Positions 43,166 through 52,368 of a DNA stretch of 64,000 nt are shown piece by piece. Origin of the DNA: Promethearchaeota archaeon (GTDB lineage: Archaea > Asgardarchaeota > Lokiarchaeia > Sigyniarchaeales > SOKP01). Position 1 is the first letter of the stretch, and every line of letters starts with the position of its first letter. Location of the stretch: assembly GCA_048940445.1 (NCBI GenBank), contig JBHLON010000004.1, positions 32,001-96,000 of the forward strand, read 5' to 3'. The translations under genes and the position numbers were made by a program. The notes under the pieces are model-generated. The model saw nothing but the letters and a program-made list of their open reading frames with translations. It was not told the origin of the DNA and did no database searches.

Positions 43166-44734
43166 TCATGAATTAGTATTTACTAATTCTCCATAACCTA
43201 TCAATCTATATCTTCGATTTATTATCCTTGAAATTGCAAAGACAAAATCTTTAGGAACACAAATTGGAGGATTCAATTGTAAGATATAAGAATTTTTTAG
43301 AATTTTAGTTATTGTTCCACCTGTTTTCTCAGTACCGACGACAAGTAGGAGCTTTTCGTTATGTTTAAGCTCGGTAACTTTGATTTGCATTTCTGAACCT
43401 ATAACTCTCTCAAGTAAATGGACTTTAAGCTCGACTTCTGAAATTACATCCGGCAATGTACCAGGTATTCCGACTAAATGCCCTATTAGTGAATCTCCTT
43501 TAGTTAATGCTGGATCCAGCTTTGTTCCTAAACCAATTAATCCTCCAGGCTTAGCTTCATTTAAAAGATTCATTCCCTGACTTATACTGACTATTTTAGA
43601 CTTAATAGGAGAATAACTGTTTTTAATTTTTATACCGGGTCGAATCTCGATCTCATCACCGACATTTACCTTTCCTTTTAATACTGATCCTCCAATAACT
43701 CCACCCCTTAATTTTTCTATATCTGTCCCTGGCTTGTTAATATCAAAAGATCGGGCTATTAGAAACTCAAAGTCCTCATCTTTGCTTAATGTTGGAGTTG
43801 GAATTACTTCTTCAAATGCCTTAACTACTAAATCAATATTAGAGCCAAATACAGCTGAGACAGGTAAGATCGGGGCATTTTCAATAGGTGTTCCATTAAG
43901 GAATTTTTTAATTTGTTTATAGTTTTCTAATGCTTTTTCTTTAGATACCGCATCAATTTTATTCTGAATTACAATTACATTTTCTATTCCAGCAATATTC
44001 AAAGCAGCAAGATGTTCTCGAGTCTGAGGTTGAGGACATGACTCATCAGCTGCTACTAATAAACAGGCTCCATTCATTAGGGAAGCTCCACTGAGCATTG
44101 TAGCCATCAATATTTCGTGTCCAGGAGCATCAACAAATGAGATATTTCTTTTGAATTCTAAGTTTCCTTCGCATTTATTACAACTATAAGCAGGTTGTCC
44201 TTCCTTATGATTTTTTTCTGCCATATAGGACGTTAGGTACTCATCACATTCAGGACAATATAAAATTGTTGCATTAGAATAGCCCAATTTTATAGATATT
44301 CCTCTCTCCTTTTCCTCAGAATGTCTATCTGTCCAATCTCCAGTAAGGGATTTTACTAATGTTGTTTTCCCGTGATCTACATGTCCAACTAAGCCGACAT
44401 TGCATTCTGCTTGTTGTTTCATTAACTTTACTAACTCTTTTGCTTTTTCGCGGGAATATTTTTTAGAAGGCTTTTTTTCTACTTTCGATTCAGTCTCTAA
44501 GGGCACTTCTTCCTTTAATGTTTCAAGTTTTTCTTTCTCCTTAGAATCTAGTAATTCTTTTGCATTAGAAATGTATTTAATTGCTGTAGATTCTCCTACT
44601 CCTTTTATTTTGATTTTTATTAGATCTTCAGGCCTACATGAAGCTAATTTTTCAACTGAGTCTATACCTGCTGCTTTCATACGTTCAGCAGTAGTTTTTC
44701 CTATTCCTGAAATATCTTCTAAATGCAGCGTCAT
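43166..44734 (-). CDS. eif2g: translation initiation factor 2 subunit gamma with N-terminal helix-hairpin-helix extension
   Basis: GHVDHGKTT, RGISIKLGY, CPEC/CNKC, DAPGHE, PQPQTREH, NKID, RSFDINKPG, RLIGYG; N-terminal ISGIGKTTAERMKAAGI..IKGVGESTA. Confidence 0.95.
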   Translation of the reverse strand: MTLHLEDISGIGKTTAERMKAAGIDSVEKLASCRPEDLIKIKIKGVGESTAIKYISNAKELLDSKEKEKLETLKEEVPLETESKVEKKPSKKYSREKAKELVKLMKQQAECNVGLVGHVDHGKTTLVKSLTGDWTDRHSEEKERGISIKLGYSNATILYCPECDEYLTSYMAEKNHKEGQPAYSCNKCEGNLEFKRNISFVDAPGHEILMATMLSGASLMNGACLLVAADESCPQPQTREHLAALNIAGIENVIVIQNKIDAVSKEKALENYKQIKKFLNGTPIENAPILPVSAVFGSNIDLVVKAFEEVIPTPTLSKDEDFEFLIARSFDINKPGTDIEKLRGGVIGGSVLKGKVNVGDEIEIRPGIKIKNSYSPIKSKIVSISQGMNLLNEAKPGGLIGLGTKLDPALTKGDSLIGHLVGIPGTLPDVISEVELKVHLLERVIGSEMQIKVTELKHNEKLLLVVGTEKTGGTITKILKNSYILQLNPPICVPKDFVFAISRIINRRYRLIGYGELVNTNS

Positions 44735-47312: not shown

Positions 47313-47473
47313 TTCCCATAGATGTATTGCCCAATTCTACTGGAAAATACTATGCTTTCAACTTTAACTTTTAAATTTAATGGTTTATAATGAAAAAATT
47401 TAATTAGTAGCTTTTATTAAATGTATTAACTTAAAACCATATAAGCAAGGTATTTTGAGAAAAAATAGCCAAG

Positions 47474-47482
47474 CTTATAAAA
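47474..47482 (+). promoter_or_regulatory. putative TATA box for the permuted 5S unit
   Basis: CTTATAAAA preceded by A-rich AAAAATAGCCAAG; the implied transcription start falls near the left arm of the processing stem. Confidence 0.4.
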
Positions 47483-47497
47483 TGGTCTTAAAGGATT

Positions 47498-47683
47498 TTT
47501 TAACCACAAAAATCCTATACATTTCGTAATGCGCTGGAAGTTAAACTGTTTTGCGTTGAAATTAGTACTGCAATTGAGATTTGTGGGAACTTTCTAACTG
47601 TGGCTTAGGCTACGGTCATGGTAAAACAGGAAAATACCTGGTCCCATCTGAACCCAGAAGCGCTAAAATTTTTGTGGTTAAAA
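47498..47683 (+). other. precursor processing stem with BHB-like motif enclosing the permuted 5S
   Basis: Perfect 16-bp inverted repeat TTTTAACCACAAAAAT (47498-47513) / ATTTTTGTGGTTAAAA (47668-47683); GCG-CTGG-AAG (47531-47540) paired with CCAG-AAG-CGC (47654-47663). Confidence 0.75.
47540..47659 (+). rRNA. rrf: 5S rRNA, circularly permuted gene (3' half 47540-47604, TTAG linker, 5' half 47609-47659)
   Basis: 5' half GCTACGGT-CAT-GGTAAAACAGG-AAAAT-ACCTGG-TCCCATCTGAAC-CCAGAA; 3' half GTTAA-ACTGTTTTGC-GTTGAAATT-AGTA-CTGCAA-TTGAGAT-TTGTGG-GAA-CTTTCTA-ACTGTGGC. Helices I-V, loop C (CCCATxxGAAC) and loop E (AGTA/GAA) are all recoverable. Confidence 0.85.
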
Positions 47684-47791
47684 GACTATTTCATAATATC
47701 TCTACTTCTAATCAAGGGAAGAATAATTTTTTTAAATGTTCTTTAATAAAATATTATATTATCGAATTATTCTTTTACTGAAAGGTGTGTT

Positions 47792-48334
47792 ATGCCGAAA
47801 AATTTAACAGTAATTTTAAAATCAATTGGAAGGAAATGGTTTTTCATTCTAGTTATCATTATCATTATAGTTGCTGTATTCGATCTTCAATTAGGTATCT
47901 GGATAACAGTAATTACATTGATCTTATATGGACTTTCATATATTCCGAATTTGTTATTTAGTAATAAACTTAAAAGATTTCTTAAGAACCAGAACACTAT
48001 AGATGATAAGATGATTTCAAGACAATTAAAAAGGAAGTATGAAGAAATACAGAAAAGGTTGTTTAAATTATCCCAAAATCAAAAAAAGGAAAGTTGGTTA
48101 ATAGTATTTCTAAACAAGCAATACATATTTTACAATGGAAAAATAATTGAGACATTTAAAGAACTTTATGAAAAAGGATTTGGAGAAAAAGAGATTTTAG
48201 AGGAACTTCAAAAAATTAACGTTAATACTCGTGCGGAAATTAAAGCGATAGAAGAAACTCTCATTAAAAATGATAGATTAAACGAGAGAATTGTTTCAGT
48301 TAAAGAATTTAGAGATAAAAAGAAATTTGGTTGA
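47792..48334 (+). CDS. membrane-anchored hypothetical protein
   Basis: Two N-terminal TM helices and a charged cytoplasmic domain. Confidence 0.68.
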   Translation: MPKNLTVILKSIGRKWFFILVIIIIIVAVFDLQLGIWITVITLILYGLSYIPNLLFSNKLKRFLKNQNTIDDKMISRQLKRKYEEIQKRLFKLSQNQKKESWLIVFLNKQYIFYNGKIIETFKELYEKGFGEKEILEELQKINVNTRAEIKAIEETLIKNDRLNERIVSVKEFRDKKKFG

Positions 48335-50804: not shown

Positions 50805-51326
50805 GTGCCTAAAAAATTTATACTTAAGATTCTGACAGCTGGAGAAGGAGGTGTAGGGAAGACAACTCTTTTACATCGTTATGTTGAAGGAAAGTTTTCA
50901 GCTGAAACTAAAATGACGATCGGAGTGGAATTCTTCCTTAAGGAAATTGAAATCAATGGCCAACATTGTACACTTCAACTTTGGGATTTTGGAGGCCAAG
51001 AACGCTTTCGATTTTTATTAGAAAGTTATGTATTAGGAGCAAAAGGAGCGTTGCTCATGTTCGATTTAACTCGCCCGATCACTCTCGAAAATTTAGAACA
51101 ATGGGTTAATATTTGTCGAAAAGGGAATCCAGAGCTTCCAATCTTATTTTTAGGTACAAAAAATGATTTAGAGGATGAAATTATGGTCAACGATGAATAT
51201 GCATTGAATTTTAAGATTGACTTTAACTTATTTGACTATTTACGAATTTCGAGCAAGTCAGGAGAAAATGTGAGGTTAGCTTTCGATTTATTAACAAAAA
51301 GAATATTACAAAAACAAATTTTTTAA
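50805..51326 (+). CDS. Rab-like small GTPase
   Basis: GEGGVGKTT, MTIGVEF, WDFGGQERF, TKND, ISSK. Confidence 0.95.
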   Translation: MPKKFILKILTAGEGGVGKTTLLHRYVEGKFSAETKMTIGVEFFLKEIEINGQHCTLQLWDFGGQERFRFLLESYVLGAKGALLMFDLTRPITLENLEQWVNICRKGNPELPILFLGTKNDLEDEIMVNDEYALNFKIDFNLFDYLRISSKSGENVRLAFDLLTKRILQKQIF

Positions 51327-51340
51327 CTCTAATTTATAAA

Positions 51341-51772
51341 ATGTTTAAAAATGCTGTAGTCATAGATTCTAACTTCATTTTACTTCCATTTCAATTTAAA
51401 ATTGATTATTTCAATGAAATAAATTTGATGTTGGAAGGTAAAACTTGTTTTATTATTTATAAACAAATATTAGATGAATTGGAAGCAAAAAGTAGGCGTC
51501 ATTTAAAAACTACTAAATTTCAACTTGAATTAAATTCAAGTTTAAGATATATTGATTCAAATCAAGAGAGATTTAATATTAAAATTATAAATAAAGTAAA
51601 ATCTGAATTTGTAACAACAGATGCATTTTTGATCAAGCAATGTATTGATTTGAAAGAAAAAGAATGGCGTGTTTTTTTAGCTACAAATGATTCTAAGTTA
51701 CGTAAGGAAGTAAATAGATTAGGAATTAGCACCATTTTCTTAAGACAAAAAAAGTACTTAACTTTTGACTAA
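51341..51772 (+). CDS. PIN domain protein (Fcf1/Utp24-like archaeal family)
   Basis: VVIDSNF..ILDELE..TDAFL..LATNDSKLRK..IFLRQKK. Confidence 0.82.
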   Translation: MFKNAVVIDSNFILLPFQFKIDYFNEINLMLEGKTCFIIYKQILDELEAKSRRHLKTTKFQLELNSSLRYIDSNQERFNIKIINKVKSEFVTTDAFLIKQCIDLKEKEWRVFLATNDSKLRKEVNRLGISTIFLRQKKYLTFD

Positions 51773-51843
51773 ATAAAGAAAAAATTTATTACCTTTTGAT
51801 ATTTCAAATATATACAATTAACAATCTGTAGGAATGCTTAGGA

Positions 51844-52368
51844 ATGTCCAAACCTAAAGTTTTTAAAATAATTATCGCCGGAGATGGAGGAGTTGGGAAA
51901 ACAACTCTGCTTCACAGATATATTGAGGGCAAATTTATTGAAAATTTGCGAATGACTATTGGTGTAGAATTTTTTTTAAAAACATTAGAGATTGACGGCC
52001 TTGATATCACTTTACAAATATGGGATTTTGGGGGTCAACAAAGATTCCGTTTTCTTCTTAAAAATTATGCTAGGGGAGCAAAAGGATCGCTTTTATTATT
52101 TGATCCTACTCGCCCTATTACATTGAAGAGAGTCGGAGAATGGGTAGAAATATGCAGATCTGAAGATCCTAATTTGCCAATCTTATTTATTGGTTCGAAA
52201 TCGGATTTAGAGGAATCAATAATTCTTTCTGATGAGTTTTTTGCTAATTTTAGGCAAACATATAACTTTTTTGACTATTTGAGAATATCTAGCAAAACTG
52301 GAGAAAATGTAGATTTAGCATTTAGATTATTAACAAAAAAGATAATTCACCATGTGAAGCTATATTGA
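51844..52368 (+). CDS. Rab-like small GTPase (paralog of 50805..51326)
   Basis: GDGGVGKTT, MTIGVEF, WDFGGQQRF, SKSD, ISSK. Confidence 0.95.
   Translation: MSKPKVFKIIIAGDGGVGKTTLLHRYIEGKFIENLRMTIGVEFFLKTLEIDGLDITLQIWDFGGQQRFRFLLKNYARGAKGSLLLFDPTRPITLKRVGEWVEICRSEDPNLPILFIGSKSDLEESIILSDEFFANFRQTYNFFDYLRISSKTGENVDLAFRLLTKKIIHHVKLY

What the first reader, a model, noticed from the sequence alone, without database searches (positions are those of the whole stretch)
47498..47683. Circularly permuted 5S rRNA gene in a BHB-like processing stem, predicting a covalently closed 120-nt 5S rRNA
Seen: the 3' half of 5S (47540-47604: GTTAA, helix II 3' strand CTGTTTTGC, loop E AGTA/GAA, helix IV CTGCAA/TTGTGG) precedes the 5' half (47609-47659: CAT, helix II 5' strand GTAAAACAG, helix III CTGG/CCAG around loop C CCCATCTGAAC). 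The normal 5' and 3' ends are fused in the hairpin ACTGTGGC-ttag-GCTACGGT (helix I, 8 bp including two G-U pairs). The new ends lie in a symmetric motif, GCG-CTGG-AAG paired with CCAG-AAG-CGC: a 4-bp helix with a 3-nt bulge 3' of each strand. The inner flanking helix is weak, so this is a relaxed BHB/BHL. A perfect 16-bp inverted repeat closes the unit. Established: the archaeal splicing endonuclease cuts after the second nucleotide of each BHB bulge, and the enclosed RNA is ligated into a circle, as for pre-16S/23S, introns and the permuted SRP RNA of Thermoproteus. Inference: cuts after 47539 and 47659 with ligation give ...CCAGAA|GTTAAAC..., the canonical 5S sequence, in a 120-nt circle. 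I do not know of a described permuted 5S gene. Standard 5S models would see only fragments, so such genes could be routinely missed.
Basis: partly seen in the sequence, partly recalled or inferred. Interest (0 to 1): 0.96.

Follow-up and report, generated by a model that had tools for sequence, protein, structure and literature searches.

The report
Back-to-front 5S rRNA gene, splice-circularised
This Loki-type Asgard archaeon, like most Asgard families sampled, writes its only detectable 5S ribosomal RNA gene back half first between tRNA-intron-type cut signals, so the working RNA is most likely cut out and joined into a 120-base ring, which would explain why 5S genes could not be annotated in some of these close relatives of eukaryotes.

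Summary
Confirmed. 47540-47659 (120 nt) is a 5S rRNA gene with swapped halves and helix I closed by a tetraloop. Rfam sees only two sub-threshold fragments, and no other 5S was found in this 93%-complete Lokiarchaeia genome. Rejoined, it scores 45.5 bits over the full length of a profile of relatives' colinear 5S (16 + 6.5 in genomic order). It is not an artefact: 120 of 135 family genomes match a permuted-order model, nearly all once, and 24 of 30 Asgard families with a call are permuted. Three things support splicing. A bulge-helix-bulge (BHB) sits at the sequence-restoring junction in 38 of 52 loci (background 0.25-1% per register). It moves with the break point across three regions of the RNA. 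And 25 of 26 distinct insertions in these genes are 29-31-nt BHB introns. EndA (two subunits), RtcB and uL18 are encoded. Closest precedent: permuted circular SRP RNA of Thermoproteus. A permuted but linear 5S is known in brown-algal mitochondria. The scan noted this before on other DNA (21 notes, at least 18 genomes; their RNA claims unchecked here).

The parts
47392..47406 (+). BRE/TATA-like archaeal promoter motif (GAAAAAA-TTTAATTA); probable stand-alone transcription unit
   Evidence: Motif conserved at this place in most of 34 family loci; function inferred from archaeal promoter consensus, not tested
47436..47486 (+). Conserved 5' leader hairpin with a 3-nt bulge (47480-47482), upstream of the processing stem; role unknown
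   Evidence: Folds at about -16 kcal/mol; similar hairpin in most family loci
47498..47513 (+). 5' arm of the outer processing stem (perfect 16-bp inverted repeat)
   Evidence: a similar stem with changed sequence in relatives
47531..47540 (+). Leader strand of the BHB-like motif: outer helix GCG (47531-33), central helix CTGG (47534-37), bulge AAG (47538-40); predicted cut 47539|47540
   Evidence: register restores the canonical junction; the outer 3 bp covary across genes
47540..47604 (+). 3' half of 5S rRNA: loop B 3' side, helix II 3' strand (47546-54), helix V, loop E, helix IV, helix I 3' strand (47597-604)
   Evidence: RF00001 fragment 13 bits; covariation; HMM
47605..47608 (+). Tetraloop TTAG that joins what are normally the free 3' and 5' ends
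   Evidence: TTCG in 70 of 124 family sequences; 3-6-nt loops across the phylum
47609..47659 (+). 5' half of 5S rRNA: helix I 5' strand, loop A, helix II 5' strand (47621-29), helix III (47638-41 / 47654-57), loop C
   Evidence: RF00001 fragment 19.7 bits; covariation
47654..47663 (+). Trailer strand of the BHB-like motif: central helix CCAG (47654-57, also the helix III 3' strand), bulge AAG (47658-60), outer helix CGC (47661-63); predicted cut 47659|47660
47668..47683 (+). 3' arm of the outer processing stem

Best explanation
This is the cell's functional, single-copy 5S rRNA gene, circularly permuted in the DNA (shown by comparison). It is probably transcribed alone from the upstream TATA motif (inferred). 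The flanking inverted repeats bring leader and trailer together. The leader CTGG transiently displaces the helix III 5' strand and pairs with CCAG, forming a relaxed BHB (structure supported by covariation; the switch is inferred). The two-subunit tRNA splicing endonuclease cuts after the second nucleotide of each bulge, and RtcB joins the ends of the enclosed 120 nt, as it does for excised introns (inferred from the known pathway). Helix III then re-forms and the RNA has the normal 5S sequence and fold, with helix I capped by a tetraloop. I estimate 0.98 that the gene is real, about 0.92 that it is spliced and ligated, and about 0.78 that the ring is the mature ribosomal form.
For: No other 5S was found in the genome. 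The same order is found in 32 of 36 genus members and 120 of 135 family genomes match, nearly all once, with conserved flanking genes. All five helices covary: 94.6% of cells paired, 18 of 32 pairs with two-sided changes, 0 of 500 shuffles as high, slid controls 31-45%. The joined junction is absent from the DNA collections while the fused helix I has 71 + 102 hits. At the HMM-best junction, 33 of 52 loci have a 4/4 central helix plus at least 2 outer pairs (38 with a relaxed rule); background is 0.25% per register strict and about 1% relaxed, with about 6 tied registers per locus. The motif moves with the break point: after helix III (three registers 1 nt apart), in loop C (38 of 101 family genes) and in loop B 5' side (G038). 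Flank pairs outside the 5S covary (GCG/CGC, ACG/CGT, CGC/GCG, ATG/CAT, TCG/CGA, GTG/CAC). 25 of 26 distinct insertions are 29-31-nt canonical BHB introns at five sites, whose removal restores the intronless length. Two EndA genes, RtcB and uL18 are present. Precedent: Thermoproteus SRP RNA (PMC4731332).
Against: This locus has no inner flanking helix and only a 3-bp outer helix. The BHB fold is about 5 kcal/mol above the helix III fold, and its central-helix probability is about 0 here and ranges 0-0.78 in relatives. Family f19 has only 2 of 4 central pairs. The loci are related, so the counts are not independent events. Scoring of the rejoined RNA used a home-made HMM, not RF00001 itself.
Confidence: 0.8

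Rival explanations
1. Same gene and same splicing, but the circle is only an intermediate that is re-opened in or near the helix I loop to give an ordinary linear 5S, as for permuted red-algal tRNAs or the re-linearised 23S of Pyrococcus.
For: Re-opening of circular intermediates is known (PMC4267664 on permuted tRNAs; PMC7758197 on 23S). All comparative evidence here addresses the first junction only.
Against: The linker is only 3-6 nt across the phylum, most often the stable UUCG tetraloop (70 of 124 in the family), with no spacer or BHB to remove. Circular 23S is reported inside archaeal ribosomes (PMC12918454).
Confidence: 0.12
2. The RNA is trimmed but not ligated and works as a linear permuted (nicked) 5S, as in brown-algal mitochondria.
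For: Permuted linear mt-5S exists (PMC4267664). The BHB here is relaxed and not the favoured fold.
Against: Cuts by the BHB rule give exactly the canonical length and junction, with no overlap or gap, at several break points. Relatives break inside loop C or loop B. Internal introns need ligation by the same machinery. RtcB is present.
Confidence: 0.07
3. Misassembly, tandem-array junction or pseudogene; the real colinear 5S is missing from the bin.
For: The genome is a 93%-complete assembly in 139 contigs, and rRNA genes often drop out of such bins.
Against: The same order occurs in over 100 independent assemblies, including single-contig genomes. Compensatory changes are present in all helices. 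The one colinear 5S found in a family bin lies in a bacterial rRNA operon contig. The joined form is absent from DNA collections.
Confidence: 0.01

Closest known systems
Permuted, circular SRP RNA of Thermoproteus tenax / T. uzoniensis (Plagens et al. 2015, PMC4731332)
   Same: Gene permuted in the DNA; short leader and trailer form a BHB; two-subunit splicing endonuclease and RtcB; circle restores the broken element; gene missed by standard models.
   Different: Here the RNA is ribosomal. It spans 24 families of a phylum, not two hyperthermophile species.
Permuted mitochondrial 5S rRNA of brown algae (Valach et al. 2014, PMC4267664)
   Same: 5S gene in which helix I becomes a closed hairpin and the ends lie elsewhere.
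   Different: There the ends lie at the alpha/gamma junction, the product stays permuted and linear, and no splice motif is described. Here the break is in the beta domain and a BHB restores continuity.
Circular pre-16S/23S and circularly permuted or circular 23S rRNA of archaea (PMC7758197, PMC12918454, bioRxiv 10.64898/2026.03.23.713588)
   Same: BHB processing stem around an rRNA; excision and ligation into a circle.
   Different: Those genes are colinear and ligation joins the native ends. PMC12918454 states that such processing involves 16S and 23S but not 5S.
Circular 5S isoforms of Halobacterium and Sulfolobus (PMC12558985)
   Same: Covalently closed 5S-derived RNA.
   Different: Variable junctions, proposed to be degradation intermediates. 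Here circularisation at one site would be required to make the RNA at all.
Permuted tRNA genes of Cyanidioschyzon merolae (cited in PMC4267664)
   Same: Halves in inverted order, cut and ligated after transcription.
   Different: There the circle is an intermediate re-opened at a spacer (own knowledge); here only a tetraloop links the native ends.

Membership tests
5S rRNA (Rfam RF00001) | Single match at or above the gathering score of 38 bits in genomic order | tested here: not met
   19.7 and 13 bits as two fragments in swapped order; expected for a permuted gene
5S rRNA (Rfam RF00001) | Rejoined sequence scores above the RF00001 cut-off | not testable with these tools
Proxy: 45.5 and 50.1 bits full length against HMMs of colinear Asgard 5S
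5S rRNA (Rfam RF00001) | Helices I-V with compensatory changes; conserved loops A, C, E; about 120 nt | tested here: met
   gap-poor alignment of rejoined genes with colinear 5S
5S rRNA (Rfam RF00001) | Present in the large subunit, bound by uL18 and uL5 | not testable with these tools
   uL18 gene present; uL5 not searched; binding not tested
Permuted, BHB-circularised RNA gene (Thermoproteus SRP type) | Halves swapped in the DNA, native ends fused, no canonical copy | tested here: met
Permuted, BHB-circularised RNA gene (Thermoproteus SRP type) | Leader and trailer form a BHB whose cuts restore the native sequence | tested here: met
   (relaxed form at this locus)
Permuted, BHB-circularised RNA gene (Thermoproteus SRP type) | Two-subunit splicing endonuclease and RtcB encoded | tested here: met
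   Two PF01974 genes, one with and one without the catalytic His by eye; RtcB
Permuted, BHB-circularised RNA gene (Thermoproteus SRP type) | Junction-spanning reads, circular RNA, in vitro cleavage | not testable with these tools
Strict canonical BHB (helix-bulge-helix-bulge-helix) | 4-bp central helix with a 3-nt bulge 3' on each strand and an outer helix | tested here: met
   Central 4/4, outer 3 bp
Strict canonical BHB (helix-bulge-helix-bulge-helix) | Inner flanking helix | tested here: not met
   0 inner pairs; a relaxed BHB/BHL, not a strict one
Brown-algal permuted mt-5S (mtPerm-5S) | Ends at the alpha/gamma junction, open three-way junction | tested here: not met
   Break lies between helix III and loop B; definition

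The most novel reading that the evidence does not exclude
Most Asgard lineages, including Hodarchaeales, Heimdallarchaeum, Odin, Freya/Jord and Hel, build ribosomes with an obligately spliced, covalently closed 5S rRNA. The permuted gene was ancestral in Asgard, its break point has moved several times, and colinear genes (Promethearchaeaceae-type Loki, Thor, Sif and possibly the line leading to eukaryotes) arose by re-linearising the gene, for example through cDNA of the circle.
Probability: 0.5. Interest if true: 0.95.

Novelty: new variant of a known kind. Interest (0 to 1): 0.88.

Why it matters
5S rRNA is treated as an easily found, linear, unspliced part of every ribosome. A permuted gene that needs the tRNA splicing machinery would make EndA and RtcB essential for large-subunit assembly in most Asgard archaea, and would give a ribosomal RNA that cannot be made without circularisation. 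It offers an answer to a published gap: Wu et al. 2022 (PMC8813620) could not predict 5S in closed Heimdallarchaeum genomes, and such a genome holds two permuted copies. BHB introns in 5S genes did not turn up in my literature searches either. Because Hodarchaeales and Heimdallarchaeum are permuted while eukaryotes are colinear (own knowledge), it raises a testable question about 5S at the origin of eukaryotes. It also affects genome-quality scores that require a 5S gene.

Tried and rejected
(2) The joined junction was searched as a DNA pattern in JGI and GTDB contigs in the hope of a transcript contig: 0 hits. This argues against a colinear copy but says nothing on expression. (3) Rfam at gathering score finds nothing in the window; the weak snoU2-30, mir-367 and U4 hits are chance level. 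(4) The 66-aa ORF 47581-47781 was rejected as spurious: it overlaps the RNA, whose changes follow base pairing. (5) The colinear 5S in genus member G014 was rejected as contamination: it follows a bacterial LSU rRNA. (6) G160 reaches 38.4 bits with RF00001 but is permuted on inspection. (7) Thermodynamic folding does not favour the BHB at this locus. (8) The sigma-70 promoter scan is not suited to archaea. (9) The 31-taxon protein tree has a weak backbone and no outgroup, and its f6 + f21 pairing conflicts with the class labels, so I use it only for the nesting of f2. (10) Archaea outside Asgard were not searched for permuted 5S. (11) Eight paper searches found no report of a permuted archaeal 5S gene; the library lacks most subscription journals.

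Full report
Observation. The window is G000:C59:32001-96000 of a 3.64-Mb, 30% GC assembly, 93% complete. Named records carrying the same fused hairpin are nearly all Asgard bins, mostly Promethearchaeota, so this is a Loki-type Asgard archaeon. The unit lies between a peptidase C25 gene (45171-47312) and a 180-aa ORF (47792-48334), both kept beside it in 25 and 29 of 29 genus loci. Rfam finds nothing at gathering score. Below it, RF00001 matches the 5' half at 47614-47694 (19.7 bits) and the 3' half upstream at 47502-47606 (13 bits). No other 5S was found in the genome.

It is a 5S rRNA. I could not run RF00001 on the rejoined sequence. A profile HMM built only from 12 colinear 5S of the neighbouring family f2 scores it at 45.5 bits over nearly the whole model, against 16.0 + 6.5 in genomic order and at most 2.9 for 500 shuffles. 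Six junction registers tie for best, because the ends share a short repeat; the BHB register 47540/47659 is one of them. In 15 family sequences the five helices of the permuted fold are 94.6% paired, with two-sided changes at 18 of 32 pairs, above all 500 shuffles and all slid controls. The structure was derived from these sequences, so the slid control leans in its favour.

It is not an artefact. The permuted order is a single collinear match in 32 of 36 genus members. A covariance model of the permuted order matches 120 of 135 family genomes, almost all once. The joined junction does not occur in the GTDB or JGI collections, while the fused helix I pattern gives 71 and 102 records, including a chromosome-level one. 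The only colinear 5S in a family bin follows a bacterial 23S gene.

Distribution. In an even draw of 151 genomes of the phylum, the permuted model hit 65 and RF00001 passed its cut-off in 50, with one marginal cross-over each way (G178, G160). With inspection of the loci, 24 families are permuted, 6 are colinear (f2, f12, f15, f17, f21, f31) and 2 gave no call. Depositors' protein names put Odinarchaeum yellowstonii, Freyarchaeum deiterrae, Atabeyarchaeia-1, Heimdallarchaeum, Hodarchaeales, Jordarchaeales, Helarchaeota and Baldrarchaeia among the permuted, and Harpocratesius (f2), Thorarchaeota and Borrarchaeum among the colinear. From genome sizes I infer that the cultured Loki strains are in f2, which would explain why this was missed. 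Colinear f2 is nested among permuted families by taxonomy and in a protein tree, and 9 of 11 f2 genes are closest to rejoined f1 genes (base composition may contribute). This suggests reversion in f2. The root state is not settled.

Evidence for splicing. First, at the junction chosen by the HMM alone, 33 of 52 loci have a full 4-bp central helix with at least two adjacent outer pairs, 38 with a relaxed rule; other registers show this in 0.25% (strict) or about 1% (relaxed) of cases. Many families have 7-8 outer pairs. Several misses have an explanation: in f18 and some f10 genes a 29-30-nt BHB intron sits right at the junction, implying two successive splicing steps, and internal introns confused the script in two loci. 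f19 is a real weak case (2 of 4 pairs). Second, the motif travels with the break point: three registers one base apart after helix III, a loop C break in 38 of 101 family genes, and a loop B break in G038, each with its own BHB and each restoring the canonical sequence. Third, the 3-bp outer helix, which lies outside the 5S, covaries. Fourth, 25 of 26 distinct insertions in these genes are 29-31-nt introns with a full central helix and inner stem, at five positions, and cutting by the BHB rule restores the intronless length. So these transcripts must pass through the splicing endonuclease and a ligase in many relatives. The genome encodes two EndA subunits, RtcB and uL18. Loci are related, so these counts are not independent trials.

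Mechanism. Shown: gene order, structure, conservation, BHB geometry and enzymes encoded. Inferred: transcription from the conserved TATA motif at 47399-47406; a switch in which leader CTGG takes CCAG from helix III; cuts at 47539|47540 and 47659|47660; ligation by RtcB; refolding of helix III. The BHB fold is about 5 kcal/mol above the helix III fold here, and its predicted probability is near zero (0-0.78 in relatives), so it would have to be a transient or enzyme-captured state. Whether the ring stays closed is open. The link between the native ends is a 3-6-nt loop, mostly UUCG, with nothing to excise, which favours a closed mature RNA.

Comparison. It works like the permuted SRP RNA of Thermoproteus, where junction reads and cleavage by the heterotetrameric endonuclease were shown (PMC4731332). 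It meets that type's sequence-level features; the RNA-level ones could not be tested. It fails RF00001's score in genomic order but meets the structural features of 5S. A permuted 5S is known from brown-algal mitochondria, but it is linear, broken elsewhere and unspliced (PMC4267664). Circular 5S isoforms from other archaea have variable ends and are thought to be decay products (PMC12558985). A 2026 paper says BHB circularisation concerns 16S and 23S, not 5S (PMC12918454). Wu et al. 2022 could not predict 5S in closed Heimdallarchaeum genomes (PMC8813620); G086, a 3.08-Mb single contig of that genus, has two permuted copies. I found no paper describing a permuted archaeal 5S gene.

Earlier scan notes. 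The scan has 21 notes on this in at least 18 genomes. Several say environmental RNA holds the predicted ring. I could not check that and do not count it as evidence.

Verdict. A real, conserved and probably essential permuted 5S rRNA gene, most likely matured by tRNA-type splicing into a 120-nt circle. It is a new variant of a known mechanism applied to a core ribosomal RNA across most of a phylum. Interest 0.88.

Noticed in passing
window 47436-47486: Conserved hairpin with a 3-nt bulge between the TATA-like motif and the processing stem; it could be a second endonuclease site or a leader element.
   Followed up: partly
L006, L017, L027, L062, L164, L211, L248 (family loci): 29-31-nt BHB introns inside 5S genes at five positions (helix IV, its loop, helix I, loop C); L211 has two. 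Intron sequences differ at the same site.
   Followed up: yes
L273, L290 (f18) and L281, L288 (f10): A BHB intron sits exactly at the circularisation junction, so two nested splicing steps are needed.
   Followed up: partly
L296 (G181, f12, Thorarchaeota by relatives' names): A colinear 5S gene with a roughly 30-nt insertion that looks like a BHB intron just after the conserved GTTAA.
   Followed up: partly
L159, L206, downstream of the gene: Genes broken in loop C keep a relic of the helix III-type trailer downstream, a possible trace of how the break point moved.
   Followed up: no
G000 whole genome: ARAGORN finds only 13 tRNA genes in a 93%-complete genome; many may be hidden by non-canonical introns, or be unassembled.
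   Followed up: no
window 43166-44734 (-): eIF2-gamma-like GTPase (522 aa) with an N-terminal helix-hairpin-helix domain (PF14520).
   Followed up: no
window 50805-52368 (+): Two Ras-family small GTPase genes flanking a PIN-domain gene.
   Followed up: no
L043 (G014:C263): Bacterial 23S-5S-tRNA contig inside a Lokiarchaeia bin: contamination that would be annotated as the genome's 5S.
   Followed up: yes
G160 contigs C77, C90, C106, C132; G086; G141: Some lineages carry two to four permuted copies, whereas the window's family is single-copy.
   Followed up: partly
window 47727-47733: Run of seven T downstream of the stem; possible archaeal terminator.
   Followed up: no
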